Shown here: positions 17,843 to 56,790 of the stretch, in pieces
Numbering within the stretch: position 1 is the stretch's first letter
Layout: the number at the start of each line of letters is the position of its first letter
Assembly: GCA_028717565.1 (NCBI GenBank)
Contig: JAQUNP010000001.1
Coordinates: 112,997 to 176,996, forward strand
DNA length: 64,000 bases
Direction: 5' to 3'
Source: Patescibacteria group bacterium
Lineage (GTDB): Bacteria; Patescibacteriota; Kazan-3B-28
Notes under the pieces: generated by a model
Told to the model about the DNA's origin: nothing
The model's input: the letters and a program-made list of their open reading frames with translations, nothing else
Databases searched by the model: none
Translations under genes and position numbers: made by a program

Positions 17843-17845
17843 AGC

Positions 17846-18136: not shown

Positions 18137-18174
18137 TAACATATCAATATTACAACAATTTGTTCAATCCTCAT

Positions 18175-18642: not shown

Positions 18643-18649
18643 ATTCGAT

Positions 18650-18726
18650 TGGTGGGCGCGGAGGGATTCGAACCCCCGACCTTCCGGATGTAAGCCGACT
18701 GCTCTGACCAACTGAGCTACGCGCCC
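18650..18726 (-). tRNA. tRNA-Val(TAC)
   Basis: Reverse complement reads GGGCGCGTAGCTCAGTTGGTCAGAGCA GTCGG CTTACAT CCGGA ... GGTTCGAATCC ... CCCACCA. Confidence 0.85.
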
Positions 18727-18894: not shown

Positions 18895-18981
18895 TGGTGG
18901 GCAAGAGAGGACTCGAACCTCCACGGGTTTTACCCCACACGGCCCTTAACCGTGCGCGTATACCAATTCCGCCACTTGCCC
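18895..18981 (-). tRNA. tRNA-Leu, type II, with anticodon loop TTAAGGG (anticodon reads AAG)
   Basis: Reverse complement reads GGGCAAGTGGCGGAATTGGTATACGCG CACGG TTAAGGG CCGTG TGGGGTAAAACCCGTG GAGGTTCGAGTCC ... CCCACCA. Confidence 0.75.
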
Positions 18982-25993: not shown

Positions 25994-25998
25994 ACAAT

Positions 25999-27171: not shown

Positions 27172-27172
27172 G

Positions 27173-28300: not shown

Positions 28301-28319
28301 GGGTGTATTATATCAGGTT

Positions 28320-37974: not shown

Positions 37975-38031
37975 TAGACTCGTTATAGGGGGAAGTCTGA
38001 AAATGTATAAATTATGGGGGCAAAAACAAAC

Positions 38032-38655: not shown

Positions 38656-38682
38656 AAAAAGCTTCTGGCTAAAAAACAAATA

Positions 38683-38720
38683 AGCGCCCTGAATAAATAA
38701 GGGCTCTTTTTGTTTTTGTT
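38683..38720 (+). terminator. Rho-independent terminator-like hairpin followed by a T-tract
   Basis: GCCCT-gaataaataa-AGGGC followed by TCTTTTTGTTTTTGTT. Confidence 0.5.
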
Positions 38721-40248
38721 ATACACTTACATTATGGTAAAAACAAAAAAAGCTTTGACGCAGCCACGGTCTACTTTGGTCCGCACCAGTTGGCTGGAGA
38801 GAATGCTTCTACTATTGTTATTAGTCGCCGGAGCCAGACCTCTGCTTGACCCGGATTTTGGCTGGCATTTGCGCTCCGGGATCGATTTATTGAGAAACCT
38901 AAGTGTGCCGAAGTTTGATAGCTATGCCTACACATTACCTAACTGGCCCTGGGTCAATCATGAGTGGTTGGCCGATGGCTTGGTGGCATTTATCTACCAA
39001 AATTTAGGCGCCCTGACTCTAATCTTAGGGTTTGCGGTGTTAATTGCTTTTATCTTCTTGTTGGCCGCCTCACTAAATCGGGTTGAGTTGAAATATAAGA
39101 TAATCGCTGGTTTAATCGCTGTTTTAGCTGCTTTGCCGATCGTGGGAGTACGTATGCAGGTTCTAACTTTGTTGGGCATGGCTCTGACCATGTGGCTTAT
39201 ATATCGATATCGCCGAGGCGAGGTTAAGCACTTGTGGTGGATACCAATCATTTTTTTGGCTTGGGCCAATCTGCACGGCGGCTTTATGATCGGTCTGGTA
39301 ATTTTAGCGCTGTTCTTTATAACAGAGCTTGCAAAGTTTTGGCTACATCAGACCCGACCCGCCATCTACAACAAACTGCGGATAGTTGAAGACACGCTTT
39401 CAGCAAGAAAGCTAAAACACCTCTTGGGTATAAGTATCTTGTCAGGACTAGCCACATTGATTAATCCATATGGTTGGGGGCTGTATTTAGATTTTTACAA
39501 GCTATTTATCAATCCTTTTGCCATTAGTCACATTAGTGAGTGGCAACCAGTCACGGTTGATAACGCCATCAGTATTAACTTCTTTATTTATTTAGCGGTT
39601 TTTGTAGTGGTAATGTTTTTGGCTTATCGGAAGGTTGAGCCGACTCGGTGGGTCTTAACTTTGGTGTTTTTATACCTGTCGTTTTTATACTGGCGCAATA
39701 TGCCTTTTTTCATGGTTATGAGTGTCGGTTTTTTTGCTGAAATTATTCAGACACACACCGCTCTGGTCTTTGATAATGTAGTGCGCAACAAAACAGTTGT
39801 TACCATTGTCACTGTGGTAGTGGCGGTATTGGTAGCCCAACGGATTGCCGATGTTGTTCCCAAAGCACTTGATGCCAACCTAAATTTTAAAGCCGGCGGC
39901 TACCCGATTGATGCGGTAAATTGGATAAAAGCTAATCCCGATAAAATCGGAACTAAAATGTTTAACGAGTACGGACAGGGCGGGTTCTTGGTTTGGCAAT
40001 ATCCCGAACAACAAGTATTTGTAGACGGTCGGATGCCGTTTTGGGTAGAAGGAGATAAATTCGTCTTCTTTGATAATCAGCTCGCTTTGGATGCTCAACC
40101 TGGTTCAATCGAGATGTTAGAAACGAAATACGGTGTGGACTGGGTAATTATTAAGCCCACTCGCCCACTTGATTGGGCACTTTCGGGTCAAGCCACGTGG
40201 GCAAATGTATATCGAGACCCTTACGCAGTCATCTACAAAAAGCTATAA
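38710..40248 (+). CDS. Polytopic membrane protein, probably a GT-C-fold glycosyltransferase (ArnT/PMT/GtrII-like)
   Basis: About 12 TM segments. First extracytoplasmic loop has an acidic motif LLDPDFGWHLRSG. Large C-terminal soluble domain. This is a recognition-level call. Confidence 0.45.
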   Translation: MFLLYTYIMVKTKKALTQPRSTLVRTSWLERMLLLLLLVAGARPLLDPDFGWHLRSGIDLLRNLSVPKFDSYAYTLPNWPWVNHEWLADGLVAFIYQNLGALTLILGFAVLIAFIFLLAASLNRVELKYKIIAGLIAVLAALPIVGVRMQVLTLLGMALTMWLIYRYRRGEVKHLWWIPIIFLAWANLHGGFMIGLVILALFFITELAKFWLHQTRPAIYNKLRIVEDTLSARKLKHLLGISILSGLATLINPYGWGLYLDFYKLFINPFAISHISEWQPVTVDNAISINFFIYLAVFVVVMFLAYRKVEPTRWVLTLVFLYLSFLYWRNMPFFMVMSVGFFAEIIQTHTALVFDNVVRNKTVVTIVTVVVAVLVAQRIADVVPKALDANLNFKAGGYPIDAVNWIKANPDKIGTKMFNEYGQGGFLVWQYPEQQVFVDGRMPFWVEGDKFVFFDNQLALDAQPGSIEMLETKYGVDWVIIKPTRPLDWALSGQATWANVYRDPYAVIYKKL

Positions 40249-40256
40249 TTGAATCC

Positions 40257-41693
40257 ATGGGGACACCAAATAAATTAGTACGGTCATTGATCTTTTTACA
40301 GGGACTCCTGTTTTTGTTTGTGCCAACGGCAACGTTGGCCTTGGCGGCTGGAGGCATTGGCGTAGTACCGCATGTCACAGAAGAGCGTCCCGATCGGGGC
40401 GGTTGGTTTCTATACGAGGTTGACCCTGGTGAGGTTATTCAAGACGAGGCCCTACTCATCAACAACAACGATCAGACAACACATTTAACACTTGATCCAC
40501 TAGATGCGGCGCTGACAGCCGATGGAGCTTTTTCTTTGATCCGAGGCCCCGAGGACAACAAGGACATTGGCACATGGATAAAAATCGAGCAAACCGAGTT
40601 TGACTTAGAACCGCATACTCAGCTAACGGTGCCTTTTACCATTGAAGTGCCTCAAACTGCGGAAGTCGGTGACCACATTGGGGGCTTGGCAGTTTACGAA
40701 TCCGAGAAGGAGCCGGAAACGGTCTTAAAATCTGGTGGCGCCAAGGTAGGTATCTCCACACGGGTTGGAGCTCGGATTTATCTGACTGTCGCGGGTGATA
40801 TCGTGCGTGATTGGAGCATCTATCACAAGTTGTTTTACGGACAAGCAGATAAGATAAAATTTCGGTTTACGATTGCCAACCGAGGCAATATTCGTGCCAA
40901 CTTATTTATAAAGGAAGGCCGTATTTATAACATTTTTGGCCTGTTCGATAAACAAGAAGATATTTCTCTGGCGCAGGTCTTCCCTCGTGAGACAGTCAGC
41001 AAAACTTTCACCTGGCCGGGCAAGGGCCGACCGCTTTTTGGCCCGTATTTGGCGATTTTTACAATCGAGGATAAATACGTTCAGGTTAACCCCAACTCGC
41101 ATGTCATAGTCCCTGAAGTCGAACCTAAAACCATTTGGATGATCACCTTCTTTATTCCTTTCACCCAAACTGCGGTCTTACTGGGGCTGCTATTCATTGC
41201 TTGGTTCTTGTATCGCTTTATAACCTGGAAACGGTTGAGCAACTTGGCCAGACGACCAGTTAAGAAATACTCTGTTAAAGCTGGTGATACTTTAGTAGAT
41301 ATCGCCGAGGACTTTGGTGTGTCATGGAAACTGGTAGCTCATTTAAATGAGCTGAAACCACCATATAGTTTACGCCAAGTGAAGGTGCTATATGTACCCG
41401 ACGCCAGTGGTGAGAGACGCAGTATTCCAATTACTGGTTTCTGGACATTTATTACCAAGCCCGTAGCTAAAATGTTCCGAAAACGGACACAGCCCAAGCT
41501 ACAAGTGGCATCTGATGCCGTAACGGAGGAGTACATTATCGTTATCGATAAGAGCGATAAGCGTAATGACATTGAGACTTTTACAGGACTGAAATGGCAG
41601 ACCATTGCCAAATACAATCACCTGAAGTCAACCTTTAAATTAAGAGTTGGCACGGAATTAAAAATTCCGGGTAAAAAACCAAAAAAGAAGTAA
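40257..41693 (+). CDS. Csc-type (DUF916/DUF3324-like) cell-surface protein with a C-terminal TM anchor followed by two LysM repeats
   Basis: Signal/anchor MGTPNKLVRSLIFLQGLLFLFVPTATLALAAGG. Two beta-rich domains. TM ITFFIPFTQTAVLLGLLFIAWFLY followed by a basic stretch. LysM repeats YSVKAGDTLVDIA...ELKPPYSL and FTGLKWQTIAKYN.... Start is set at the internal Met because the ORF-track start overlaps the previous gene. Confidence 0.5.
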   Translation: MGTPNKLVRSLIFLQGLLFLFVPTATLALAAGGIGVVPHVTEERPDRGGWFLYEVDPGEVIQDEALLINNNDQTTHLTLDPLDAALTADGAFSLIRGPEDNKDIGTWIKIEQTEFDLEPHTQLTVPFTIEVPQTAEVGDHIGGLAVYESEKEPETVLKSGGAKVGISTRVGARIYLTVAGDIVRDWSIYHKLFYGQADKIKFRFTIANRGNIRANLFIKEGRIYNIFGLFDKQEDISLAQVFPRETVSKTFTWPGKGRPLFGPYLAIFTIEDKYVQVNPNSHVIVPEVEPKTIWMITFFIPFTQTAVLLGLLFIAWFLYRFITWKRLSNLARRPVKKYSVKAGDTLVDIAEDFGVSWKLVAHLNELKPPYSLRQVKVLYVPDASGERRSIPITGFWTFITKPVAKMFRKRTQPKLQVASDAVTEEYIIVIDKSDKRNDIETFTGLKWQTIAKYNHLKSTFKLRVGTELKIPGKKPKKK

Positions 41694-41706
41694 CGGAAGG
41701 GGGTGA

Positions 41707-43797
41707 ATGATATATGGGAGGTATCAACATCTAGCAAATGGAGTGGCTTGGTTTCTGGCTGGGTGGCTCGCTTTTGGCTTCCCATTTTCTTATTTTCAGT
41801 TCACACCCTCTGTTCGGGCCGGTGGTGCGACCATGTACCTGCTGTGGGACTCGACTAATGGCGATCCGCCAGATGGCTGGGTAACACAATCTGGATCCGG
41901 CGACCCGGCCTATCAACGCTTTTTGCGAGGAGACGCGGCGGTTTCGGCTTTGAGCACGGGCGGTAATGAGGCAGGTATCCACAATCATACGTTAAGCAAC
42001 ATGACTGTCAGCACCAATATCGCTGGCGCGGCCTATAAAAATAACCGAGCTGATACGGTGGACTGTGCACTAAGTCACAGTCATAATATTTTGGCTTCCT
42101 TTATGGATGATGCCACCATCTTGCCCAAATACCGGGATTTGGTCCTAATCATGTACGAAGCCGGCATGCCAGATTTTTTGCCAGCTGACGTGATAGTTGG
42201 CTTTGCTTCTGGAGCCAGCATCCCATCTGGATTTACGCAATATTCATCACAAAACACCAACTTTGTCCGTCTCGCAGACGCCACTGGCAGTAGCACTGGT
42301 TCCAACACTCACACCCACACTAATGTCGCTATCATATTGGATGTTTGTGACACAATTTCTCTGAATAATCGCGGTGCCAACGTGGTGGCCAGTGAGAAGC
42401 ATTTTCATCAATACTCGGGGACCTCACCGACTGGCGACCACACCCCTCCCAGCACCGGCTTGCCCCTCTATAGTGTGGATGACGCCGATACTCCCCTCCC
42501 CACCGATATGATAGCGTTCTTTAACGCCTCTCCCCCAACGTGGTGGACCTCTTTAAGCGAATCGGGGGGAGATTTTTATCAAAAATATATCTACGGCAAT
42601 AGCACTTATGCCACTGGTACCGGTAGCGCTACCCACAATCACCCAGGTGTTACCCAACTGGTAACTGGTGCTGCTGTCGATCCAGGTCCGGTTCTAGTCG
42701 ATCCGGGAACTCCGTCCGCCTCGGCCGCCTCAAGCACACATACACATACCATTACTACGCCTACCTACTCCAATGAAAATAATGACCCGCCATATATTAA
42801 CGTAGTCGTGGCCAAATATGATCCGCCTGACTTAACTTGGTCATCAGGCATCTTGGATAGTTACACTATCTACGAATCAGGAACTTTGACCTGGGGAGCA
42901 GGCACGGAGGTGTGCTCGGCCACTTTAACTGATGACAACTCCTCGACTGTAGAATGTAGTGGCGATGGCATTGACGATTCTACCCAATACCGGATTGATG
43001 TTGTATTAAAAAACGTTGGCTCGGTAGCCGCTCATATGTATGGAGGTAGCGATACCGTAACTTTTAAAAATATTATTGGCGGCTGGGCGGGCACCACACC
43101 CACCATCGGCTCATGCGGATTTTATGATTCTGGTTCAGATGATACCGGCACACCATCATGTACCCCAGCGTCAGGCGCCAACGACGTAATTTTGTCTAAT
43201 ATCGGAGCAAGTAGCGAGGTGATTTTGGCCGCCTCCTCGGGATTGGAGGGATTTATGCTGATTGTCACAACTGACAGCGATGCAACTACCAGCTCTACTA
43301 GTTATATGGACACTATCATTGACACAAATAGTGAGGATTCTAGCAAAATCACTGTTTCGTTGGCTTCGGCTCTAGGGATCACGGCGCCCGACAACATAGT
43401 TTTGGCTGCTTCTAATCCCGGAGCCGTTAGTGAAACCACTTTCGAGACAGATGAATTGGTTGTAGTCACCGATGGGGGCAGTGGGTGGAGCTTGACGGCT
43501 GCCATGCAGACCACTTTTAGCGATGGTGGCTCCAACACTATTCCGGATGCGAGTGTCTATCTACATAAAGACGGCAATGTAGAAACCGAAGATGAATATA
43601 CGATTTGGTCTGGCGATGTAGAAAACGTTACCGAGACCGATGAAACTGTCTCGTTAGACGAATCCAGATCGGTGGGGACTAGAAGCAGCGGTACCGGTGG
43701 TGACACCACCAATGTTCGGCCAACTATCAAAATAATTATGCCTGTAGATCAGGCAATCGCTGACTATGATGGTGTCATCCGATTTACCGTAGTATAA
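41707..43797 (+). CDS. Large S/T/G/D-rich surface protein with a C-terminal WxL-like module
   Basis: N-terminal hydrophobic anchor or signal. C-terminus ...VVTDGGSGWSLTAAM ... DYDGVIRFTVV-end. GGAAGGGGG RBS upstream. Confidence 0.6.
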   Translation: MIYGRYQHLANGVAWFLAGWLAFGFPFSYFQFTPSVRAGGATMYLLWDSTNGDPPDGWVTQSGSGDPAYQRFLRGDAAVSALSTGGNEAGIHNHTLSNMTVSTNIAGAAYKNNRADTVDCALSHSHNILASFMDDATILPKYRDLVLIMYEAGMPDFLPADVIVGFASGASIPSGFTQYSSQNTNFVRLADATGSSTGSNTHTHTNVAIILDVCDTISLNNRGANVVASEKHFHQYSGTSPTGDHTPPSTGLPLYSVDDADTPLPTDMIAFFNASPPTWWTSLSESGGDFYQKYIYGNSTYATGTGSATHNHPGVTQLVTGAAVDPGPVLVDPGTPSASAASSTHTHTITTPTYSNENNDPPYINVVVAKYDPPDLTWSSGILDSYTIYESGTLTWGAGTEVCSATLTDDNSSTVECSGDGIDDSTQYRIDVVLKNVGSVAAHMYGGSDTVTFKNIIGGWAGTTPTIGSCGFYDSGSDDTGTPSCTPASGANDVILSNIGASSEVILAASSGLEGFMLIVTTDSDATTSSTSYMDTIIDTNSEDSSKITVSLASALGITAPDNIVLAASNPGAVSETTFETDELVVVTDGGSGWSLTAAMQTTFSDGGSNTIPDASVYLHKDGNVETEDEYTIWSGDVENVTETDETVSLDESRSVGTRSSGTGGDTTNVRPTIKIIMPVDQAIADYDGVIRFTVV

Positions 43798-44191
43798 AAA
43801 GTTGATGCTTTTCCATCTGGTGTTGATGTAAAATGGTTTTAAGAAATAAATGGCTAAGTAAGGGGTCCATTGTCAAAAGCCAATCGCGATGATAAGGGAC
43901 GATAAATCGCGAAACAATCAGGACCACAGCGGCGACGCTCCGGCTATGCGACGCCCAAGAATAGTAAGTAGGCCGATAATATTTTTAACCGGCTGACTAA
44001 GAGCAAAACTCTGGCAGAAAACAAAAGTACGATAGGCCTGCGAAATATTTAGCGGCCGACCTCGTCTTTCGAGGATACAATGACCACTACAATTGTTGCG
44101 CAAGCGTTTTTACTCGCTTCTCTTTTCGGAAAAACAGAATTTGTCACCGGCAGGATTATCGTGACCTAACAAGTCACGAAATTTTTATATC

Positions 44192-45139
44192 ATGAAACAA
44201 CCATCGCGTTCTATCCCCATCCTGATTCTCTCGAACTTAGTGCTTTTAGGCGCACTGATTTTTGTATGCGTGTTTTGCATCAACCATCCCCACAGTTCAA
44301 AATATCCACTGGTAGATATCACTAGGGACTTTATACCACAGGAAGATTTCATCATTAATATTCAACCCCTACGTGAGCAGGTGCGGGAAATGATTGATCA
44401 GTATGGAGCTAATCGGGTCTCGGCCTATATCGAATTTTTAAACACGGGCTCTAATATCGCTGTGAACCCCGACTTAAAACTTTGGTCGGCTAGTTTGGGT
44501 AAGGTGCCTTTGGGCATGACAGTAATGAAAAAGGTGGAAAATGGGTTGTGGGATCTAAACAGCGAATTGGTGCTGTTTGAGGGAGATCGAGACCCTTTGT
44601 CTAGTGATGCCACAGACCCCCTGTTTCGCTACCCTATCGGTACCCGTTTTACGATTGAAAAGCTAATGGAATATCTACTAACCTATTCTGACAATACTGC
44701 CGGGCAGATTTTAACACGTAACCTAAGCCAAGATGACACTCAATTGATTATCGAGGATACTGGCGCCGAAGAGCTGTTTACTGAAGAAGGCAAGATGAGC
44801 TCCAAAGAATATGCCCGACTATACCGAGCGCTATACACCTCTAGCTTTTTGAACCGAGACGGTTCACAAAAAATCTTGGACTGGTTAGCCAATGCCAGTT
44901 TCAGAAAATATCTTTCAACCGGCATACCAGAAGGTATTTCGTTTGCTCACAAATACGGGGAAAATCGAACTGATTTAGTCATCGCCGACTCGGGCATTGT
45001 CTATCTGCCGAACCGACCGTTTTTAATGGTGGTAATGGTGCAAAAGTTAGATGATTCGGCAGCGGAGGATATAAAAGCGCGGGCCTTTATGCACGACATA
45101 GCCGAGACAACATATAACTATTTTGCCAACTATCAATGA
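44192..45139 (+). CDS. Class A beta-lactamase-like serine hydrolase (PF13354-like), membrane-anchored
   Basis: N-terminal TM. S-x-x-K (WSASLGK) and SDN (YSDNTAG) motifs. Third box HKYGEN sits where KTG/KSG is expected. ATGA start/stop overlap with the next gene. Confidence 0.6.
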   Translation: MKQPSRSIPILILSNLVLLGALIFVCVFCINHPHSSKYPLVDITRDFIPQEDFIINIQPLREQVREMIDQYGANRVSAYIEFLNTGSNIAVNPDLKLWSASLGKVPLGMTVMKKVENGLWDLNSELVLFEGDRDPLSSDATDPLFRYPIGTRFTIEKLMEYLLTYSDNTAGQILTRNLSQDDTQLIIEDTGAEELFTEEGKMSSKEYARLYRALYTSSFLNRDGSQKILDWLANASFRKYLSTGIPEGISFAHKYGENRTDLVIADSGIVYLPNRPFLMVVMVQKLDDSAAEDIKARAFMHDIAETTYNYFANYQ

Positions 45140-47538
45140 TACGGCGGGGATTTTATTGGCTGGTGGCTTTCATGCTGACTGTTCAGCTGGTTTTGCCCAG
45201 TAGCTTAGTTACCCAGTTGCTTCGGGACTGTAACATAGTAGATGTTTTATATCTTTCTTCAAAAAGCCACAACCTAGCCGATAACCAGTTAGCCGGTTCA
45301 CAAAATGCACACGCTCAGTCGGCCAGCCAAACTACCTTTTATTTTAAAAACGATACCAGAAGTGCAAACACCTACTGGGGTGTAGCCGGTCCTACAGTGG
45401 ACAACAGCACTGATACAGTAGAGATTACGGTAAGTGGTGCTACCACAGCCGGCGCCATGCATCCAATTGCTGGGCCTATAGTTCCCGCCACTACCAGTGA
45501 CAGCGTAGTGGGCACTAGTTTGGGAGATAGCAACGCGGATTTGGCATGGTACAAAACCTTTATTATGCCCATTGCCTCCGGCACCCAGTTTACGGCTTTG
45601 ACCATGTTTCAGGTTGCCGCATCGTTTGACGAAAGCAACGCGGCCGCCAATGCTTACGCCAGAGCTTTTGCTTATGTGTATGACTCCGGCAGCAATTCCA
45701 ATGTCCAAACCCTAGCTGGTCCGACTAGTCACAGTACTGAAATCGGTACCAGTGATCAAGGTAAGATTTGGTACTTAATGAATGCAGTGGGAGTTACTCC
45801 CTACACGACGGATAACAATGACTTTTTAGCCGTTGAAATCTGGGTGGATTTCCAGCATACCACCACCACGGCCTACACTTGCACATTCCGCTGGGGAGGT
45901 AACACGAATATAGTGGACAATACGGCCAACACTACACCAGCCAGTCGGATTACCATTAGCAATACTACTGTTGACACCTTTGACCCTCTGTGGCTCTTGC
46001 CGACTAATGCGGACCATGAGGTCACGCCTAATGCCCATCAAACCGGCGATTCATTCCAGGGCGGCACTTGGGAGGGCAGACGTATGAGTACTACGGCTGG
46101 CGGTGGCGCCGAGCTCAAAAGCCAAGCCGTATCCACATCTGTTGGCAACTGGCGGATGAATACTTTCGTCTCTCCCCCACTAGCTGCCCAGACGATTCCT
46201 GCTGGCAACTGGGTCATTCATATGCATGGTAACGAATCCAGCACTTCGGCTAATGCTAGATTTCGAAGTATGATCTACATTTGGAAAAATGACGACTCCG
46301 GCATCCGCGGGACCATTAAGTCAGTGGGCAATGCTTCGACCGAATGGGGCACAGCCACCACGAATAATCAAGTGGAAGATGTGGTGGCGGGCTCGACAGT
46401 AGCTGTGAGTGCTGGCGATAGATTGGTATTAGAAATGGAAGCTGTTACCGTTACCTCCTCTGGCGCTTATACTACCAATCACCGCTTTGGAGCAGATCCT
46501 ACAACACCTGGCACTTCGGTATATGATAGTGCCATCCTGCCACCGATGAACTATTCCTCTACACCCACTCCCCTGCAGTTTTTAACTGAAGATTTCAGCC
46601 AGACCCACTATCACTTCGATGAGGACAATGATGGCGAAACCCATAGTGCGTGGACTGATTCGGTGGGCAGCATTGCTGAAGATACTCCTGGCACTTATTC
46701 GGTCAGTACTAATTTTCGACTTAGAATTCAAATTGCTTCCACAGGCGGTGAAAATGCTGGTCTGGTTCCGTTTTTATACTATCAAACCAAAAGTCCGCCT
46801 GGTTCGTGGACTCTGGTCACCAATAGTTCAACTGACATCCAAACCTCCCTGTCAGGTAATTTTGACCAAAATACAGCCACCAGCAGACAGCTAACTGACC
46901 TCACTAGTAGTGGATGGGATTTTACTGCTGGTAGAATGATTGAGGACTCTGGGGGAACTGTGTCCAACACTTCGATGAATGCCTGGAGTTTTACCGAATT
47001 TGAATGGTCTTTGACTGGTGTTAATGCAAATATCTATTTGTTCAAAGCCACCTATGCCGGTAGTGATTTCGGTTTGTATGCGAGCACCCCAGAAGTCACC
47101 ATCACTGCGGGGTCTCCACTAAGCGTTTTTGCTCCAGCGGCACAAGACCTTGGCTCTCTTAGTCCAGGCGATGTGGGGCAGTACACTTTTGGGGAGCCTG
47201 TCATTATTACTGACGGTGGCGCAGGATGGTCACTAACGGCAGTTATTACTGTGCCTTTAAATAACGGTAAAACTAACCTAGATAGTTCTAATGTCAAACT
47301 AAGAAAAGACGGGGTTGTCGATGGTGGGAGTGATGTTTATACCATCTGGGATAATGAGGTCAGCTACGTTTCAGAAAACGAGGAAACGGTTGGTTTAGAC
47401 ACGTCTCGTACCGTCGGGATACGCAGCCGAGGCCGAGCTAGTGAGATGACCTTGGTGAGCCCTAGTTTGCAAATTGAAATACCGGTTGCCCAACAGACCG
47501 GAGATTATCGAGGAGTCCTCGAGTTCACTGTCGTTTAG
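45136..47538 (+). CDS. Large surface protein with a C-terminal WxL-like module, paralogous at its C-terminus to the 41707 gene
   Basis: N-terminal anchor. C-terminus ...IITDGGAGWSLTAVI ... DYRGVLEFTVV-end. Confidence 0.6.
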   Translation: MIRRGFYWLVAFMLTVQLVLPSSLVTQLLRDCNIVDVLYLSSKSHNLADNQLAGSQNAHAQSASQTTFYFKNDTRSANTYWGVAGPTVDNSTDTVEITVSGATTAGAMHPIAGPIVPATTSDSVVGTSLGDSNADLAWYKTFIMPIASGTQFTALTMFQVAASFDESNAAANAYARAFAYVYDSGSNSNVQTLAGPTSHSTEIGTSDQGKIWYLMNAVGVTPYTTDNNDFLAVEIWVDFQHTTTTAYTCTFRWGGNTNIVDNTANTTPASRITISNTTVDTFDPLWLLPTNADHEVTPNAHQTGDSFQGGTWEGRRMSTTAGGGAELKSQAVSTSVGNWRMNTFVSPPLAAQTIPAGNWVIHMHGNESSTSANARFRSMIYIWKNDDSGIRGTIKSVGNASTEWGTATTNNQVEDVVAGSTVAVSAGDRLVLEMEAVTVTSSGAYTTNHRFGADPTTPGTSVYDSAILPPMNYSSTPTPLQFLTEDFSQTHYHFDEDNDGETHSAWTDSVGSIAEDTPGTYSVSTNFRLRIQIASTGGENAGLVPFLYYQTKSPPGSWTLVTNSSTDIQTSLSGNFDQNTATSRQLTDLTSSGWDFTAGRMIEDSGGTVSNTSMNAWSFTEFEWSLTGVNANIYLFKATYAGSDFGLYASTPEVTITAGSPLSVFAPAAQDLGSLSPGDVGQYTFGEPVIITDGGAGWSLTAVITVPLNNGKTNLDSSNVKLRKDGVVDGGSDVYTIWDNEVSYVSENEETVGLDTSRTVGIRSRGRASEMTLVSPSLQIEIPVAQQTGDYRGVLEFTVV

Positions 47539-47564: not shown

Positions 47565-48584
47565 ATGCGACTTAGGCTACAGTTCCAGATATTTTTATGG
47601 GTTGGCTTGGGGCTTTTGCTGTACGCACTTTGGCTGACCCTCCGAGTCCCTGCAGTTCAGCATCTAGTCGAGCGGCTAGTGGCCGATCAACCCGTCACTG
47701 TTTTAGCTGGTGGTGATGTGAATTTGGGCCGACAAACCGGACAAGAAATTTTGGCTGGGAATATAGATTATCCTTTTCAAAATATCACTGGCATTTTACA
47801 GAGTGCAGATATTACTTTCGTAAATCTCGAGAGCCAACTGGCTGACCTCAACGGTGAAACCCAATCCCCCACTAATGAATACCGCTTTGCCGGTCCGCCC
47901 CAAGGGGCGCTTGCGTTGCACAATGCGGGTATAGATATTGTATCGATTGCCAATAACCACATGTGGGATTATGGCCAAGAGCGTTTGCAAGAAACCATTA
48001 ATAATCTGAATGCTCAAGAAATTGTATATGTGGGTGCCGACATGTTACCAGAAAATCGTTTCGCAGCCAAAATTCTTGAGGTACGTGGTCAAAAAATCGC
48101 CTTTCTGGCGTTCACTGATTTGCTCAACGGTTATGAGAAAAGTGGTGCTGACCAATATGTCGCTTTCGGCGATGAAGACGCATGCATAGCCGAAATCAAA
48201 CAAGTCCGCGAATTTGCTGACTGGGTGCTAGTTTCCCTGCATGCTGGAGCCGAATACACAGCCAAACCTACTGCCCGAACTATTGAACTAGCTCATACTT
48301 TTATTGATGCTGGCGCTGATGCAATTTTGGGTCACCACCCTCATGTCCCTCACCCAATCGAGATCTACAAAGATAAGCCCATTTTCTACTCATTGGGTAA
48401 TTTTGCTTTCTGGCAGCCATTTACTTTCTGGACGCAAAATAGTTTTTTGATAAAGCTGGAGCTAACCGAGCCCCGACAGTTGGATTACGAGATCATCCCA
48501 GTTAAAGCAGGTTGGCAACCAGAGATGCTGACCAAAAGTGATGACATTGCCACACTCATGACACGGCTACATTCCCAAATCTGA
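47565..48584 (+). CDS. CapA/PGA_cap family metallophosphatase (poly-gamma-glutamate-type capsule biosynthesis protein)
   Basis: N-terminal TM. GGDVNLGR ... SIANNHMWDYG ... LHAGAEY ... GHHPHVP ... YSLGNF. Confidence 0.8.
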   Translation: MRLRLQFQIFLWVGLGLLLYALWLTLRVPAVQHLVERLVADQPVTVLAGGDVNLGRQTGQEILAGNIDYPFQNITGILQSADITFVNLESQLADLNGETQSPTNEYRFAGPPQGALALHNAGIDIVSIANNHMWDYGQERLQETINNLNAQEIVYVGADMLPENRFAAKILEVRGQKIAFLAFTDLLNGYEKSGADQYVAFGDEDACIAEIKQVREFADWVLVSLHAGAEYTAKPTARTIELAHTFIDAGADAILGHHPHVPHPIEIYKDKPIFYSLGNFAFWQPFTFWTQNSFLIKLELTEPRQLDYEIIPVKAGWQPEMLTKSDDIATLMTRLHSQI

Positions 48585-48622: not shown

Positions 48623-49618
48623 ATGAAATCTGATAAAAAAATTAACCCGTGGCATGTGTTCCAAATGGCCGTGGGGGTTTTGGCGATTATTGTTATTGGC
48701 TACTTCGCAGTTAGCTCACCGACTACCCGAGCATCTTCAGTCACTCAGGCGGTCGACGGTGACATTGTGCTTTCGGATAGTGATTTCGAAACGTATATGG
48801 CCTACGAATTTGAATATTTCTTGGAGAAAGAAGGCGTCAGTTATGTCACAGCGGAGGCCGAAGCCCGAACTCAGTATCTCAACGATGATTATGGAATTGG
48901 CGACGATACCACTGGTGACACCGTTAGCGAAGAAGCCGAAAGCACGTCCAGCGATTCTGCCCCGACCGGTTTTTGGGATAAGGTTCTTGGCTGGTTCCAG
49001 CGAACCTTTCTAGGCACTGGCGCCGAAGCAGCCACGGATACAACCTGGGAAGCGCACAATAAAAAGATTGCCGATTTAGAAGCTCAGCTGAAAGAGGCAG
49101 AGTGGGCTTTAAACAAGGAAAAGCAGCTTTACGCTGCCGCCTATGATGCGTGGAAACAAGATGTACTCTACGAAAGCCCCGAAGCTGAAAAAAGGGACAA
49201 GGCCATTAAGAAGGCTCGGGTTGATGCAGCTTTGAAAGCTTTAAAGAATGCGGAGGCCAGAGTGGCTCAGATAAAATCTCAGTTGGCGAAGGCTAAGCAA
49301 GATTTTAAGGACTACCAGGATACTATGTCCAGACAAAGACGATCTACCGGTAAGCGTGGGTCAAGCGGTAGCCGGGATAGACAAAAGGGCTACGCCGATG
49401 CTAGAGATGAACTCGGACGAACCCCAACTTATGAAGAGTGGGTGGAGGCCTTCTTGAAACAGTTAGAGGCAAACCCACCGACCACACCCAAAAGTCCTAT
49501 CCCCGAGCCAGAACCCTTACCGGCCTATCCGACAACTCCTGGGTTAAATCTTGATTCCAAGTTGAACGCCACCACGCCATCTGCAACCCTTAATCAGTCT
49601 ACTACCTCATCAAAGTAA
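48623..49618 (+). CDS. Membrane-anchored coiled-coil protein with a Pro-rich tail (paralog 1)
   Basis: TM MAVGVLAIIVIGYF, an acidic region, a heptad-like K/E/A-rich segment, and a tail ...RTPTYEEWVEAF...PIPEPEPLPAYP.... Confidence 0.55.
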   Translation: MKSDKKINPWHVFQMAVGVLAIIVIGYFAVSSPTTRASSVTQAVDGDIVLSDSDFETYMAYEFEYFLEKEGVSYVTAEAEARTQYLNDDYGIGDDTTGDTVSEEAESTSSDSAPTGFWDKVLGWFQRTFLGTGAEAATDTTWEAHNKKIADLEAQLKEAEWALNKEKQLYAAAYDAWKQDVLYESPEAEKRDKAIKKARVDAALKALKNAEARVAQIKSQLAKAKQDFKDYQDTMSRQRRSTGKRGSSGSRDRQKGYADARDELGRTPTYEEWVEAFLKQLEANPPTTPKSPIPEPEPLPAYPTTPGLNLDSKLNATTPSATLNQSTTSSK

Positions 49619-49626
49619 ATATTTAA

Positions 49627-51093
49627 TTGCCCATTTTGATGCAACCGAATCACAATACCCCGCAGCACTACTTGGAAATGGCCGTTGCCATTGTGGCGGT
49701 GGTAGTGATTGGTGCTTTTGGCGTGTTGAATAATTTTCACACACACGCTGCGACCACTTTAACAACTGACGAGCAGACCAGAGTGGACGAATATCTGGCT
49801 CGGTTGTGGTTGGAAGAGAATGGTGACACGTATGCCAATGAGCTGACCCAAATTGATCTGGACTATGTTGCCGCCGTACAGGAAATTATGTCCCAAGAGC
49901 CCACCCCAACCCTCGACGAGGACATCTTGGCCAAAGCCACCAGATCGGATGCGGCCGAGTTTGTGTATGCTTTGTTCGGGACGACTGGTTATGATGCCGC
50001 GGATGATACCACTATGTCCGAGACCGGTTTCACAACCGATACCAAAATTATTACCGAGGTAGTTGGGGCCTTGTCTCTCAACAGCGAGACCTATTCGCCT
50101 GGTGCCCTTTTGGCCACCGCTGCAAGTTACGCCGACCCAGAGTTTGACGGCCGCACCTTTTCTAGCGAAGAGGTGGAATCTATGACGGAACTGGCTAGTA
50201 ATTTTGCCGAGGAACAAAATCTCCCAGAGCTAATCAACGATGTCAATATGTGGCTCAGTGAAAAATCGGCTCCGCCAAGCAAAAGTTGGTGGCAAAGATT
50301 CATCGATTGGATCAAGGGCTTATTTAAGCCAGCTGAGGCACAGGCCCTTATCGCAGCCATGTTGCCAATCGTGGGGCAGATTCAACAAAGTTTGGTGAGC
50401 TATTTGCAAGCCAACCCGGGTCTTATGTCCACTTCGTCCGGGCAAAGCTGGACCTGGGGAAAGCCAGAGGCACTAAATGAACAAGAACAAGCTTTAGTAG
50501 ACGAGCTGGAGTGGCTGAATGAACGTTTGAAATTAAATGAGGAGGCACTGGCCAAAGCCGAAAAGGAGGGTAAGAAAGTCACGGCCGCTATTCATAGACG
50601 AGCCATTCAGCTGATAAAAGAGAAGATGTTAGGCGTCATGCAGAAATTAAATGAGCTACGAAGAAAGGCCAAAGCTATTCGCGATGCCAAAGTGGCTCGA
50701 GACGAACAGGAGCGTAAAGCTGCCGAGCGGGCCAGTCAACGTAGCCGCCGATCACAAAGTGATGGTCAAAAGGCCTACGAGGAGGCCAAGAGTAAGGCCA
50801 ATAAACCGCCCACTTATGACGAATGGCTGGACAAACTAGCAGAGCTCTTGGGAGGAGATGATATAAAACCACGAAAGCCCATGCCTGAGCCAGAGCCGTT
50901 ACCAATCAGCCCACCAGGGCTGGGTGAACCCTCGATTCCGGGTCTGGACAATCCGCTCATTCCGAGCGCACCGGAGCCGAATGAAAATATTACTATCCCA
51001 CCGATTGAGCCGGAACCAGCCGAGCCAGTCATACCCACCCCTACCCCTCTACTCAATGAGTCACTAGAACCAGGACTAAATACCAGTAACTGA
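49627..51093 (+). CDS. Membrane-anchored coiled-coil protein with a Pro-rich tail (paralog 2)
   Basis: TM MAVAIVAVVVIGAF, acidic region, coiled coil, tail ...KPPTYDEWLDKL...PMPEPEPLPISPPGLG.... Same architecture and motifs as the preceding gene. Confidence 0.55.
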   Translation: MPILMQPNHNTPQHYLEMAVAIVAVVVIGAFGVLNNFHTHAATTLTTDEQTRVDEYLARLWLEENGDTYANELTQIDLDYVAAVQEIMSQEPTPTLDEDILAKATRSDAAEFVYALFGTTGYDAADDTTMSETGFTTDTKIITEVVGALSLNSETYSPGALLATAASYADPEFDGRTFSSEEVESMTELASNFAEEQNLPELINDVNMWLSEKSAPPSKSWWQRFIDWIKGLFKPAEAQALIAAMLPIVGQIQQSLVSYLQANPGLMSTSSGQSWTWGKPEALNEQEQALVDELEWLNERLKLNEEALAKAEKEGKKVTAAIHRRAIQLIKEKMLGVMQKLNELRRKAKAIRDAKVARDEQERKAAERASQRSRRSQSDGQKAYEEAKSKANKPPTYDEWLDKLAELLGGDDIKPRKPMPEPEPLPISPPGLGEPSIPGLDNPLIPSAPEPNENITIPPIEPEPAEPVIPTPTPLLNESLEPGLNTSN

Positions 51094-51108: not shown

Positions 51109-52617
51109 ATGCCATTAGCCAAAATCAAAAGCGCATCAGTAGTTGGATTGGATGCGACCCTAGTAGACGTGGAGGCAGACATCAGCAATGGACTGCCGAC
51201 TTTTAAAATAGTTGGGTTGCCAGACAAGGCAGTGGAAGAATCTAGAGAACGAGTGCGTTCAGCTATCAAGAATTCGGGGCTCACCATGCCTACACGTCGA
51301 CTAACTATCAATCTAGCTCCGGCCGATGTCAAAAAGATTGGCCCGGCTTACGATTTGCCAATAGCTGTTGGTTTGCTAGTAGCTTCCAAACAAATTGAAC
51401 TAGACAGTGACAAGTGTTTCTTTATTGGAGAGTTGGCTCTAGATGGGACCTTGCGTCATACCAATGGCATCATTGCCATGGTCAACATGGCAAAACGGCA
51501 TGGTTTTGAAACCGCCTACATTCCTCTGGCCAACGCTCGGGAAGGAGCCCTGATAGACAACATTGAAATAATTCCGGTCGACAGTTTGTTAAATCTAGTG
51601 TTGCACTTAAAAAGAGAAAAAATTATTCTACCGTGTCCGCATGAGACCTTGCCCCAATCTACCCATATCTATGACACTGACATGAGCCAGATCGCAGGCC
51701 AAGAACAAGCCAAGCGAGCTCTCGAAATAGCAGCCGCTGGTGGACACAACCTATTGATGACCGGTCCGCCAGGTAGTGGTAAAACCATGTTGGCCAAGGC
51801 CCTCCCCAGCATCTTGCCCAAAATGACTCTCGAGGAAATGCTAAGTGTCACCCACATCTATAGTGTGGCCAACTTGTTAAAAGATAGGCATTTGGTCTCG
51901 ACTCGACCTTTTAGAAGCCCACATCATACCGCCTCATATGTCGCATTGGTAGGCGGTGGCAACATTCCTCAACCGGGTGAAATTACCTTGGCGCACAGGG
52001 GGGTTTTGTTTTTAGACGAGTTACCAGAGTTCCCGCGCCAAGTCCTGGAAGTTTTACGCCAACCGCTAGAGGATGGGGTGGTACATATCGCCAGAAGTGC
52101 CGGCAAGCTTACTTTCCCTGCTCGCTTTATGTTGATAGCAGCGAAAAACCCCTGCCCCTGTGGTTATTTTGGCGACGAACAAAAATCTTGCTCTTGCAGT
52201 GCGGGACAGATAGAAAACTACAACAAAAAGATTTCGGGACCACTTTTGGACAGAATCGACATTCATATTGAAGTACCCAGAATCGAATACGAAAAATTGA
52301 AGAACTTCGAACCCCAGGAGTCCTCTGATGTGATTAGGCAACGAGTAGAAAATGCACGAAATATCCAAATTCAACGCTTTGCTGATAGCGCCAGTTTGAC
52401 CAACAGTGATATGAGAACTGAAGAGTTGAAAAGTTTCTGTGTCCTCGATGATGAGGGCGAAGCTTTAATGTCTCAAGCCATGGAGAGCTATCAGCTCTCA
52501 CCTAGAAGCTACACTCGCATACTTAAAATCTCCCGCACAATTGCAGATTTGAATAATTCGCCAATGATAAAACCGCATCACCTCGCCGAGGCGATTCGGT
52601 ATAAGGTAGCCGATTAA
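51109..52617 (+). CDS. comM: YifB/ComM family Mg-chelatase-like AAA+ ATPase
   Basis: Lon-like N-domain, Walker A GPPGSGKT, and a C-terminal Mg_chelatase_C-like region. 502 aa. Confidence 0.9.
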   Translation: MPLAKIKSASVVGLDATLVDVEADISNGLPTFKIVGLPDKAVEESRERVRSAIKNSGLTMPTRRLTINLAPADVKKIGPAYDLPIAVGLLVASKQIELDSDKCFFIGELALDGTLRHTNGIIAMVNMAKRHGFETAYIPLANAREGALIDNIEIIPVDSLLNLVLHLKREKIILPCPHETLPQSTHIYDTDMSQIAGQEQAKRALEIAAAGGHNLLMTGPPGSGKTMLAKALPSILPKMTLEEMLSVTHIYSVANLLKDRHLVSTRPFRSPHHTASYVALVGGGNIPQPGEITLAHRGVLFLDELPEFPRQVLEVLRQPLEDGVVHIARSAGKLTFPARFMLIAAKNPCPCGYFGDEQKSCSCSAGQIENYNKKISGPLLDRIDIHIEVPRIEYEKLKNFEPQESSDVIRQRVENARNIQIQRFADSASLTNSDMRTEELKSFCVLDDEGEALMSQAMESYQLSPRSYTRILKISRTIADLNNSPMIKPHHLAEAIRYKVAD

Positions 52618-52932: not shown

Positions 52933-53049
52933 CTCTGGCGCTGACCTACTCTCCCAGACCGTTACGATCTAGTACCATCGGCGCTAAGGCGCTTGACTGC
53001 CGTGTTCGGGATGGGAACGGGTATTACCACCTTGCTACAAGCACCAGAG
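52933..53049 (-). rRNA. rrf: 5S ribosomal RNA
   Basis: Reverse complement reads ...CCCGTTCCCATCCCGAACACGGCAGTCAAGCGCCTTAGCGCCGATGGTACT...GGGAGAGTAGGTCAGCGCCAG. Confidence 0.85.
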
Positions 53050-53071: not shown

Positions 53072-53365
53072 TTATTTGGATTTATCAGTAAAGAAATCTT
53101 TGAGTTTGCGGGTATTGTCATCAACCGAAATAGCCAATAGAACGAATTCACTAACACCGAGAAAGATAATAGCATAGACAATACTCATAAATAAAATGCC
53201 GAGTGCAGACATGACCGGCGTACCAATGGTCTGGAAACCATAGGTTACCAGAATATCTGGCATAGCCATAATCACTCCACTAAGCGCAATGCCACCTAAG
53301 AAAACTAGCCAGCCAAGTAAGCGCATTGTTAAACTCAAGGTTCTCAACATCTTATATTTAGCCAT
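53072..53365 (-). CDS. Small 2-TM membrane protein encoded in the 23S-5S spacer (hypothetical)
   Basis: 97-aa ORF with two clear hydrophobic helices. Not part of the rRNA. May be spurious. Confidence 0.35.
   Translation of the reverse strand: MAKYKMLRTLSLTMRLLGWLVFLGGIALSGVIMAMPDILVTYGFQTIGTPVMSALGILFMSIVYAIIFLGVSEFVLLAISVDDNTRKLKDFFTDKSK

Positions 53366-53569: not shown

Positions 53570-56790
<3,221 letters not shown>

What the first reader, a model, noticed from the sequence alone, without database searches (positions are those of the whole stretch)
48623..51093. Tandem paralogous membrane-anchored coiled-coil proteins with a conserved PTY(E/D)EW...PEPEPLP tail
Two adjacent genes encode proteins of 331 and 488 aa with the same architecture. 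The first gene has a short N-terminus and a single TM (MAVGVLAIIVIGYF in one, MAVAIVAVVVIGAF in the other). An acidic low-complexity region follows. Next comes a K/E/A-rich coiled-coil segment. The C-terminus carries G(Q)K(A/G)Y(E/A)(E/D)A, then (R/K)(T/P)PTY(E/D)EW, then P(I/M)PEPEPLP, then PGL. The motif conservation shows they are paralogs. I recognise no functional domain. They sit between CapA (capsule/PGA anchoring) and ComM, at the distal end of the surface-protein locus. That placement suggests an envelope scaffold or divisome/secretion-associated role.
Basis: seen in the sequence. Interest (0 to 1): 0.55.

Follow-up and report, generated by a model that had tools for sequence, protein, structure and literature searches.

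The report
Orphan paired coiled-coil envelope protein genes
Two neighbouring genes in an uncultured Patescibacteria (CPR) genome encode real, anciently duplicated proteins, probably of the cell envelope, that have no detectable relatives anywhere. They fill a variable gap between two conserved genes, so they are most likely an ordinary lineage-specific accessory surface pair and not a core machine.

Summary
ORFs 48623..49618 (331 aa, A) and 49627..51093 (488 aa, B) are true paralogs with one collinear layout. In order it runs: N-terminal hydrophobic helix, acidic disordered spacer, Trp-rich amphipathic helix, long helical hairpin, basic Arg/Ser linker, QKxYxxA, PTY(E/D)EW, PxPEPEPLP, PGL. Shuffle z-scores are 11 for the TM block and 17 for the C-terminal block. 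The coiled-coil segment matches by composition only.

Both genes show host-like coding statistics. Synonymous sites between them are saturated, so the duplication is old and selection has kept the motifs.

No known family matched in Pfam, NCBIfam, PHROGs, PADLOC, PDB sequences or Foldseek. A full HMMER profile search of 1.84 billion representative proteins returned only the two proteins themselves.

The five nearest genomes (candidate division Kazan and allies; ComM 67-68% identical, CapA 66% in the one relative compared) lack the pair. There CapA abuts ComM directly, or the gap holds unrelated genes (GIY-YIG, GGDEF, PaaX-like).

My reading is a lineage-specific accessory pair of extracytoplasmic envelope proteins, membrane-anchored or secreted. 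A core divisome or secretion role is not supported. Function remains inferred. Interest is low to moderate.

The parts
48623..49618 (+). Gene A, 331 aa
   Evidence: ORF. In-frame codon log-likelihood is 0.25 per codon against -0.47 and -0.77 off-frame. Identical to NCBI 'hypothetical protein PHR51_00915, Patescibacteria group bacterium'.
49627..51093 (+). Gene B, 488 aa from TTG 49627, or 484 aa from ATG 49639
   Evidence: ORF. In-frame codon log-likelihood is 0.30 per codon against -0.66 and -0.60 off-frame. The public gene call is 484 aa.
48665..48712 (+). A residues 15-30: single hydrophobic helix, either a signal anchor or the h-region of a signal peptide. A conserved T-x-A follows at residues 35-37.
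   Evidence: Kyte-Doolittle windows above 1.4 occur only here. The block is conserved with B at z=11.4.
49678..49728 (+). B residues 18-34: the homologous hydrophobic helix, followed by T-H-A
48968..49015 (+). A residues 116-131: Trp-rich amphipathic helix GFWDKVLGWFQRTFLG
   Evidence: W118, W124 and F129 are invariant with B. Shuffle z=4.8. Hydrophobic moment is 0.40. AF2 predicts a helix at 117-129 at low confidence.
50284..50331 (+). B residues 220-235: Trp-rich amphipathic helix SWWQRFIDWIKGLFKP
   Evidence: Hydrophobic moment is 0.62.
49019..49366 (+). A residues 133-248: two long helices (133-183 and 189-248) predicted as a hairpin. This is the only confidently modelled part.
   Evidence: AF2 pLDDT is 77-89 over ~141-240. 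Foldseek superposes it on helical hairpins such as CdsO, YscO and MacA, none significantly.
50467..50799 (+). B residues 281-391: the equivalent long helices
   Evidence: Alignment. AF2 predicts helices 281-314 and 316-391, but at low confidence with pLDDT below 62.
49376..49546 (+). A residues 252-308: conserved C-terminal module D-QKxYxxA ... PTYEEW ... L..L ... PIPEPEPLP ... PGL
   Evidence: Shuffle z=17.3. Invariant columns are listed. Only 11 of 29 identical residues use the same codon.
50761..50922 (+). B residues 379-432: the same module (GQKAYEEA ... PTYDEW ... PMPEPEPLP ... PGL), followed by a further ~55-aa Pro-rich tail to 51090
47565..48584 (+). Upstream flank: CapA-like PGA_cap gene, conserved in relatives
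   Evidence: Pfam PF09587 E=2.8e-67. 66% identical to the L052 ortholog.
51109..52617 (+). Downstream flank: ComM / Mg-chelatase-like AAA+ gene, conserved in relatives
   Evidence: Pfam hits. 67-68% identical orthologs in L001-L004 and L052.

Best explanation
A and B are functional, anciently duplicated, lineage-specific accessory envelope proteins of a Kazan-related Patescibacteria (CPR) bacterium. They sit in a variable slot between the conserved capA-like and comM genes.

Shown:
- Both are real coding genes.
- They are paralogs.
- They have no detectable homolog.
- The pair is absent from the syntenic site in the nearest genomes.

Inferred mechanism:
- Each protein is inserted by Sec with its short N-terminus in the cytoplasm and its one hydrophobic helix in the membrane. 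That helix is either retained as an anchor or cleaved after the conserved T-x-A.
- The rest of the protein lies outside the cell.
- There an acidic disordered spacer is followed by a Trp-rich amphipathic helix that could lie on the membrane surface or on a partner.
- A helical hairpin with arms of about 50 and 60 residues then serves as a stalk or oligomerisation unit, possibly forming an A-B heteromer.
- A short conserved module (QKxYxxA, PTYxEW, PxPEPEPLP, PGL) leads into an extended proline-rich tail. I take this module to be the partner- or wall-binding end.

The likely role is accessory decoration, spacing or adhesion at the cell surface, next to a WxL/LysM-type surface-protein locus. It is not a core cell-division or secretion machine.
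For: - Real genes: coding statistics match the host's genes in frame and are negative off frame, and GC content equals the surrounding genome.
- Paralogy: E=8e-16, with block z-scores of 11-17.
- Old duplication under selection: among 97 identical amino-acid columns, 36 share the codon against 33.7 expected by chance, so the motifs are kept although synonymous sites are saturated.
- Topology cues: one N-terminal hydrophobic segment only, the N-flank of A carries +2 net charge, and the downstream flank is acidic.
- The TM block is unusually conserved, including N-x-x-P-x-H before it and VIGxF within it.
- Structure: only the two long helices are confidently predicted (pLDDT 77-89), and the spacer and tail are disordered.
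- Orphan status: two k-mer-seeded searches of 5.8 billion proteins, an exhaustive HMMER profile search of 1.84 billion representatives, and motif scans of GTDB genomes, JGI metagenomes and IMG/VR all returned only self.
- Accessory status: in L052 and L004, CapA is followed by ComM after 14 nt. L001 has a GIY-YIG ORF in the slot, L002 a GGDEF ORF, and L003 GGDEF plus a PaaX-like ORF. The flanks are orthologous: ComM 68%, CapA 66%, 800-aa protein 46%.
- Context: the upstream same-strand genes include a LysM + WxLIP_PGBD protein and sub-threshold WxL matches. Gaps between genes are tight, and no + strand promoter-like or terminator-like site lies between 44761 and 51986, which is consistent with co-transcription.
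Against: - Nothing tests function directly.
- Topology rests on the positive-inside rule for A only. The N-flank of B has no positive charge.
- No signal-peptide or TM predictor was available, so anchor versus cleaved signal is open.
- The AF2 models rest on a two-sequence alignment. B is unusable (pLDDT 38).
- The hairpin arrangement, as opposed to one extended helix or an intermolecular coiled coil, is a prediction.
- No expression data exist.
- The second sample's contig is 100% identical, so there is no population variation from which to measure selection.
- The WxL-locus context is partly sub-threshold: WxLIP_PGBD scores 26.9 against a 27.3-bit cutoff, and WxL matches have E=0.02-0.07.
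Confidence: 0.45

Rival explanations
1. Cargo of a mobile or viral element. On this reading the pair was dropped into the capA|comM slot by a selfish element and acts in something like superinfection exclusion, lysis (an Rz-like membrane-anchored coiled coil) or host takeover.
For: The slot is variable among relatives, and in L001 it carries a GIY-YIG nuclease ORF, a frequent selfish-element gene. Weak PHROG hits include a 'moron membrane protein' at E=0.019 and an Rz-like spanin at E=0.61.
Against: - There are no integrase, transposase, tRNA or phage genes nearby, and no flanking direct or inverted repeats.
- Codon usage and GC content are native.
- The duplication is old.
- IMG/VR holds no relatives.
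- Viral fold matches are meaningless, with TM-scores below 0.35.
- All PHROG hits are coiled-coil noise.
Confidence: 0.12
2. Membrane partners of the neighbouring CapA-like enzyme. On this reading the conserved TM helices bind CapA, as the small PgsE/CapE membrane peptide encoded after capA does in Bacillus poly-gamma-glutamate systems. The external parts would then organise a polymer or the wall.
For: The genes lie immediately downstream of capA on the same strand. The TM block is more conserved than a mere anchor needs. The TM region of B gives a faint NCBIfam CapE_47_fam match, E=0.073.
Against: - The CapE hit scores 13 bits against a cutoff of 35, covers only a hydrophobic segment, and is absent for A.
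- No CapB or CapC was found among the window proteins scanned.
- Orthologous CapA genes in five relatives have no such partner downstream.
Confidence: 0.1
3. Core envelope scaffold of the divisome or a secretion/competence apparatus.
For: The layout (N-terminal TM plus coiled coil) recalls FtsB/FtsL/DivIC, EzrA and MreC-type proteins. The pair is adjacent to comM.
Against: - The pair is not conserved even in the nearest genomes, where capA abuts comM.
- There are no homologs anywhere.
- No DivIC, FtsB, EzrA, pilus or secretion family matches.
- The capA-comM adjacency is conserved without the pair, so the link to comM is incidental.
Confidence: 0.07
4. A TolA/TonB-like envelope-spanning tether. 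On this reading an N-terminal TM helix with a conserved polar residue couples to a membrane motor, and a long helical or polyproline rod reaches an outer layer.
For: The order of elements (TM, long K/E/A-rich helix, (E-P)n-type proline stretch) is reminiscent of TolA domain II and the TonB Pro-rich spacer (own knowledge of those families). His and Pro are invariant just before the TM helix.
Against: - No TonB_C or TolA matches.
- No globular C-terminal domain.
- No ExbB/ExbD/TolQ/TolR/MotA-like gene among the window proteins scanned.
- CPR cells are generally considered to lack an outer membrane (own knowledge).
Confidence: 0.04
5. Cytoplasm-facing membrane-remodelling or stress proteins with a PspA/Vipp1/ESCRT-III-like hairpin.
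For: The top Foldseek PDB hits include Vipp1 filaments (E=0.14), and the proteins have an amphipathic helix plus a hairpin.
Against: - No hit is significant, and TM-scores are 0.2-0.4.
- There is no PspA_IM30 Pfam match.
- PspA-family proteins have no N-terminal TM helix or Pro-rich tail.
- The charge distribution of A puts the bulk outside.
Confidence: 0.04

Closest known systems
TolA (domain I TM anchor + domain II long Ala/Lys/Glu-rich helix) and TonB (TM anchor + Glu-Pro/Lys-Pro spacer)
   Same: Both have a single N-terminal TM helix, a long charged alpha-helical segment and an (E-P)-type proline stretch. All are expected to span envelope space.
   Different: There is no sequence match, no C-terminal globular domain and no motor-partner gene among the window proteins scanned. 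A 70-170-aa acidic disordered spacer and a Trp-rich helix lie between the TM helix and the long helices. The Pro-rich part is the very C-terminus.
FtsB / FtsL / DivIC and other bitopic coiled-coil division proteins
   Same: Short cytoplasmic N-terminus, one TM helix and an extracytoplasmic coiled coil.
   Different: A and B are three to five times larger. The coiled coil starts more than 100 residues after the TM helix. There is no Pfam DivIC match, and the pair is not conserved in the nearest relatives.
Helical-hairpin proteins: YscO/CdsO/FliJ, the alpha-hairpin of HlyD/MacA/EmrA adaptors, PspA/Vipp1
   Same: The predicted antiparallel two-helix hairpin, with arms of about 50 and 60 residues, superposes locally. 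Examples are CdsO at rmsd 2.0 A over 87 columns and MacA at 2.1 A over 89. Pfam YscO scores E=0.0097.
   Different: All matches are below significance: Foldseek E>=0.14, and YscO scores 16.4 against a 28.8-bit cutoff. A and B lack the lipoyl and beta-barrel domains of adaptor proteins. YscO/FliJ and PspA have no TM helix or Pro tail.
Gram-positive fibrillar coiled-coil surface proteins with Pro-rich wall-spanning regions (M-protein type), and WxL/Csc cell-surface complex loci
   Same: A coiled-coil stalk plus a proline-rich segment, located beside a locus with LysM, WxLIP_PGBD and WxL-like proteins.
   Different: A and B have no LPXTG or YSIRK signal and no WxL domain. Anchoring, if any, is by the N-terminal helix, and the Pro-rich region is at the free C-terminus.

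Membership tests
TonB (PF03544 TonB_C) / TolA (PF06519, TIGR02794) | C-terminal TonB_C or TolA domain III detectable by profile | tested here: not met
   There are no such hits at E<=1 in Pfam or NCBIfam. The C-terminus is a disordered Pro-rich tail.
TonB / TolA | Partner ExbB/ExbD or TolQ/TolR genes | tested here: inconclusive
   None was found among the window proteins scanned. The remaining window ORFs and the rest of the genome were not examined.
FtsB/FtsL/DivIC (PF04977) | Profile match, small size (~100-130 aa), and conservation across related genomes | tested here: not met
   There is no Pfam hit. The proteins are 331 and 488 aa. The pair is absent from the syntenic site in five relatives and has no homolog at all.
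PspA/Vipp1/ESCRT-III (PF04012) | Profile or significant structural match to the hairpin core | tested here: not met
   There is no Pfam hit. The best Foldseek match is Vipp1 at E=0.14 with TM-scores of 0.22-0.38.
YscO / FliJ hairpin family (PF07321) | Score above the Pfam gathering cutoff | tested here: not met
   The score is 16.4 bits against a 28.8 cutoff, for A only. PDB YscO 4mh6 scores E=0.11.
PEP-CTERM / PGF-CTERM / LPXTG sorting signals | Motif followed by a C-terminal hydrophobic helix and a basic cluster | tested here: not met
   PEPEP and PGL motifs are present, but no hydrophobic window exists beyond residue ~40 in either protein. There are no NCBIfam sorting-signal hits.
CapE/PgsE small membrane partner of CapA (NF040516) | Profile match above cutoff | tested here: not met
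   B only: 13 bits against a 35-bit cutoff, E=0.073, over the hydrophobic segment.
CapE/PgsE small membrane partner of CapA (NF040516) | CapB and CapC present in the genome | tested here: inconclusive
   No CapB or CapC was found among the window proteins scanned. The remaining window ORFs and the rest of the genome were not examined.
Phage Rz-type i-spanin / tape-measure proteins (PHROGs) | Significant profile match and phage gene context | tested here: not met
   Best PHROG E-values are 0.017-0.6 on coiled-coil segments only. There are no phage genes nearby and no viral-contig relatives.
Sec signal peptide versus signal anchor | Cleavage after an A-x-A-type site | not testable with these tools
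   A conserved T-R-A / T-H-A lies 5-7 residues after the hydrophobic core in both proteins. No SignalP or DeepTMHMM was available.

The most novel reading that the evidence does not exclude
A and B may found a previously unseen CPR-specific class of envelope-spanning tether. On this reading a conserved TM helix, an acidic spacer, a hetero-oligomeric helical hairpin and a polyproline rod end in a new docking motif (PTYxEW-PEPEPLP-PGL). That motif would bind the wall, the S-layer or the host cell, so the pair would be a lineage-specific determinant of episymbiont attachment.
Probability: 0.1. Interest if true: 0.5.

Novelty: new variant of a known kind. Interest (0 to 1): 0.2.

Why it matters
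If the inference holds, the pair is one more rapidly evolving, strain-specific surface equipment of an ultra-small CPR bacterium. Such proteins are candidates for host attachment or phage-receptor variation, both poorly understood in this group.

Its practical value is modest. The pair documents a variable slot between capA and comM in Kazan-related genomes. It also provides a clean case of an orphan family whose reality is shown by internal paralogy and not by external homologs. It opens no long-standing question, and nothing in it would surprise a specialist, because orphan envelope proteins are common in CPR genomes.

Tried and rejected
- **Domain libraries.** Pfam, NCBIfam, PHROGs and PADLOC gave only sub-threshold coiled-coil noise: YscO, SMC, LmuB, tape measure, FliH.
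- **Homolog searches.** The k-mer-seeded searches with A and with B returned only self. The exhaustive HMMER search with the A+B profile, covering the Trp helix to PGL, returned only self. A search with B residues 35-215 returned nothing, not even the protein itself, so that negative is weak.
- **Motif-pattern scans.** GTDB genomes, JGI metagenomes and IMG/VR gave pattern hits, but none was confirmed as a relative.
- **PDB sequence search.** The best hit was YscO at E=0.11.
- **Structure prediction.** For A only the hairpin is confident. B is unusable.
- **Fold searches.** Foldseek against the PDB found nothing at E<=1e-3. BFVD matches have TM-scores below 0.35 and rmsd above 20 A. afdb50 was unavailable.
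- **Mobile-element signs.** No flanking repeats and no composition shift.
- **Population variation.** The second sample's contig is 100% identical over 12.4 kb, so no pN/pS estimate is possible.
- **Further paralogs.** None in the 64-kb window.
- **Literature.** Searches for WxL plus Patescibacteria and for candidate division Kazan gave nothing relevant.
- **Sorting signals.** PEP-CTERM and PGF-CTERM were considered because of the PEPEP and PGL motifs. They were rejected for lack of a C-terminal hydrophobic helix.
Full report
**1. What is there**

The window carries two same-strand ORFs: A at 48623..49618 (331 aa) and B at 49627..51093 (488 aa from TTG). Public gene callers start B at ATG 49639, giving 484 aa.

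The genes lie 38 nt after a PGA_cap/CapA-like gene (47565..48584, Pfam E=2.8e-67). They end 15 nt before a ComM/Mg-chelatase-like AAA+ gene (51109..52617, E=5e-99).

Protein A is identical to an NCBI entry named [quoted passage not shown] from a 359-kb contig. A Logan assembly of run SRR22315506 holds a 16-kb contig with the same gene order. That contig is 100% identical in DNA over 12.4 kb.

Yes.

The MAFFT alignment is collinear along the whole length. The shared elements run in this order:
- a short N-terminus with invariant N, P and H
- one hydrophobic helix (MAVxxxAxxVIGxF)
- an acidic, low-complexity spacer, with net charge about -17 in A 31-120 and about -29 in B 31-210; B carries about 110 extra residues here
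- a K/E/A-rich helical region
- a basic Arg/Ser-rich linker
- then D-QKxYxxA, PTY(E/D)EW, L..L, PxPEPEPLP and PGL
- a Ser/Thr/Pro-rich tail in A, and a Pro-rich tail in B

BLASTP gives 32% identity over 147 aa with E=8e-16.

| Region compared (A vs B) | Shuffle z-score |
|---|---|
| Full length | 20.8 |
| N-terminal / TM block | 11.4 |
| C-terminal motif block | 17.3 |
| Trp-rich helix | 4.8 |
| K/E/A coiled-coil segment | 2.0 |

So paralogy rests on the ends and the Trp helix. The coiled coil itself is similar only in composition.

**3. Are they real genes?**

A codon model was trained on 17 clear genes of the window.

| Gene | In-frame log-likelihood per codon | Off-frame values |
|---|---|---|
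| A | 0.25 | -0.47, -0.77 |
| B | 0.30 | -0.66, -0.60 |

These values are as good as or better than those of ComM and the neighbouring surface genes, and they hold in every sub-region. The overlapping antisense ORFs score about 0. GC content does not differ from the surroundings.

At the 97 aligned columns where A and B share a degenerate amino acid, 36 use the same codon against 33.7 expected from codon usage alone. Synonymous sites are therefore saturated. The duplication is old, and the TM block and C-terminal module have been kept by purifying selection. There is no sign of recent gene conversion; the longest shared DNA word is 16 nt.

**4. Homology**

No known family explains the proteins:
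- Pfam, NCBIfam, PHROGs and PADLOC give only sub-threshold matches on the helical segment. Examples are YscO at 16.4 bits against a 28.8 cutoff, SMC, LmuB, tape-measure proteins and FliH.
- The best PDB sequence match is YscO at E=0.11.
- The k-mer-seeded searches of 5.8 billion proteins returned only the queries themselves.
- An exhaustive HMMER search with the A+B profile (Trp helix to PGL, 227 positions) against 1.84 billion representatives found exactly two proteins at E<=1e-3: A and B.
- Degenerate-motif scans of 185,579 GTDB species genomes, JGI metagenomes and IMG/VR found pattern matches but no confirmed relative.
- The window holds no third paralog.
- A search with B's N-terminal region alone returned nothing, not even the protein itself, so that negative carries little weight.

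**5. Structure**

AF2 on the two-sequence alignment gives a mean pLDDT of 52.5 for A.
- Confidence is high only for two long helices, 133-183 and 189-248 (block means 77-89).
- Two short helices cover QKGYADARDELG (251-264) and YEEWVEAFLKQLEA (270-283), at pLDDT 56-69.
- Residues 1-137 and 284-331 fall below 50.

The model of B is unusable at pLDDT 38, although it is predicted all-helical or disordered.

Foldseek against the PDB found no match at E<=1e-3. The top hits are generic helical hairpins, including Vipp1, IpaB, EmrA, HlyD, MacA, YscO and CdsO. Local superpositions reach rmsd of about 2 A over about 90 columns. This fits a hairpin but says nothing about family. BFVD matches are meaningless, and afdb50 was unavailable.

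**6. Synteny, the most informative result**

The window's ComM was used to fetch the nearest genomes among the GTDB species representatives. The best five, at 67-68% identity, are:
- two "candidate division Kazan" MAGs: L052 (CP011216, complete) and L004
- three further Patescibacteria or Saccharibacteria-labelled MAGs: L001, L002 and L003

The flanking genes are orthologous. CapA is 66% identical, and the 800-aa surface protein is 46% identical over 767 aa.

| Genome | Content of the capA-comM slot |
|---|---|
| L052, L004 | Nothing; the capA stop and comM start are 14 nt apart |
| L001 | A 100-aa GIY-YIG ORF |
| L002 | A GGDEF ORF |
| L003 | A GGDEF ORF plus a PaaX-like ORF |
| Window | A and B (2.5 kb) |

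The capA|comM junction is therefore a variable slot, and A+B is its lineage-specific filling. An 800-aa surface protein is still 46% identical at this phylogenetic distance. So the absence of any A/B relative there is a real absence and not just divergence.

No repeats, integrase, transposase or tRNA mark the insertion. The simple scans show no + strand promoter-like or terminator-like site between 44761 and 51986. Together with intergenic gaps of 8-38 nt, this fits co-transcription with the neighbours, although such scans are weak evidence.

**7. Context**

The same-strand genes upstream include the following:
- a 506-aa protein with LysM (E=2e-15) and a near-threshold WxLIP_PGBD/DUF916 match (26.9 against 27.3 bits)
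- a 213-aa protein with a sub-threshold WxL match, E=0.024; the L052 ortholog scores 0.065
- the conserved 800-aa protein, which carries a GWSL motif
- a beta-lactamase-fold gene

"Surface-protein locus" is therefore a fair description, probably of the WxL/Csc type, but A and B are not a conserved part of it. I found no CapB, CapC, ExbB or TolQ-type genes among the window proteins I scanned.

**8. How it most likely works**

Shown:
- two functional paralogous genes
- a single N-terminal hydrophobic helix
- a disordered acidic spacer
- a confidently predicted pair of long helices
- a conserved short C-terminal module
- a proline-rich tail
- orphan status and accessory status

Inferred:
- Topology is N-in/C-out. 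The N-flank of A has +2 net charge, and the flank after the helix is acidic.
- The helix is either retained as a signal anchor or cleaved after the conserved T-R-A / T-H-A. Its unusually high conservation argues mildly for retention and for a specific helix-helix contact.
- Outside the membrane, the hairpin is the obvious oligomerisation or stalk unit. A-B hetero-oligomers are plausible because both copies have been kept side by side for a long time.
- The invariant PTYxEW-PEPEPLP-PGL module, ahead of an extended polyproline segment, is the best candidate for a binding end. The partner could be the wall, an outer layer, another protein or the host cell.

I put 0.45 on "accessory extracytoplasmic envelope or surface proteins".

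Rivals, with their probabilities:
- mobile-element or phage cargo, 0.12
- CapA membrane partner of the PgsE/CapE type, 0.10
- core divisome or secretion scaffold, 0.07
- TolA/TonB-like tether, 0.04
- PspA-like cytoplasmic remodeller, 0.04

The remainder is unassigned.

**9. Comparison with known families**

The pair resembles bitopic coiled-coil envelope proteins in layout (TolA/TonB, FtsB/FtsL/DivIC, M-protein-like fibrils). It fails every membership test that could be run:
- no profile match to any of these families
- no C-terminal domain
- no sorting signal after PEPEP or PGL, because there is no C-terminal hydrophobic segment
- no motor-partner gene among the window proteins scanned
- no conservation in relatives

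It is a new sequence family with a familiar architecture.

**10. Verdict**

Orphan, fast-evolving envelope proteins are common in CPR genomes, and no system-level feature emerges. Interest is therefore low to moderate, at 0.2.

Noticed in passing
window 38014..47538 (+): The same-strand block upstream looks like a WxL/Csc-type cell-surface complex locus in a CPR genome. A 506-aa protein carries LysM plus WxLIP_PGBD (26.9 against 27.3 bits). A 213-aa protein has a sub-threshold WxL match (E=0.024). The 800-aa protein has a GWSL motif and a conserved C-terminus, and it is 46% identical to an 810-aa protein in Kazan MAG L004. WxL loci are known from Firmicutes. A literature search for WxL plus Patescibacteria found nothing relevant.
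   Followed up: partly
L001 9484..9786; L002 9306..9944; L003 1068..1628 and 1755..2318; L052 and L004 9972..9985: The capA|comM junction is a variable slot in Kazan-related genomes. It is empty (14 nt) in two genomes, holds a GIY-YIG nuclease ORF in one, a GGDEF ORF in one, and GGDEF plus a PaaX-like ORF in one.
   Followed up: yes
window 53581..56781 (-), 52933..53048 (-): The 23S rRNA match spans 3201 nt against a 2925-position model, so about 276 nt are extra, probably as insertions. No 16S rRNA lies anywhere in the window, so the rRNA genes appear unlinked. The 5S gene lies about 530 nt from the 23S, with a 97-aa ORF (53072..53365) between them.
   Followed up: no
window 30558..31101 (+): The RNase P RNA (bacterial class A) match spans 544 nt against a 367-position model, which implies large insertions.
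   Followed up: no
window 17563..18981 (-): A cluster of eight tRNA genes within 1.4 kb.
   Followed up: no
window 23954..29702 (-): A glycan-synthesis cluster: a DUF4012 protein, two GT4 glycosyltransferases and a Bac_transf initiating sugar transferase. It lies about 10 kb from the surface-protein locus.
   Followed up: no
window 44192..45139 (+): A Beta-lactamase2-family gene (E=2e-34) sits inside the surface locus. It was not seen in the corresponding stretches of L004 and L052, which instead carry a PaaX-like gene between the 800-aa ortholog and capA.
   Followed up: partly
tool behaviour: The protein search with B residues 35-215 did not return the parent protein P0002, although that protein is in the collection. 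Negatives from the k-mer-seeded search on low-complexity acidic queries should therefore be treated with caution.
   Followed up: no
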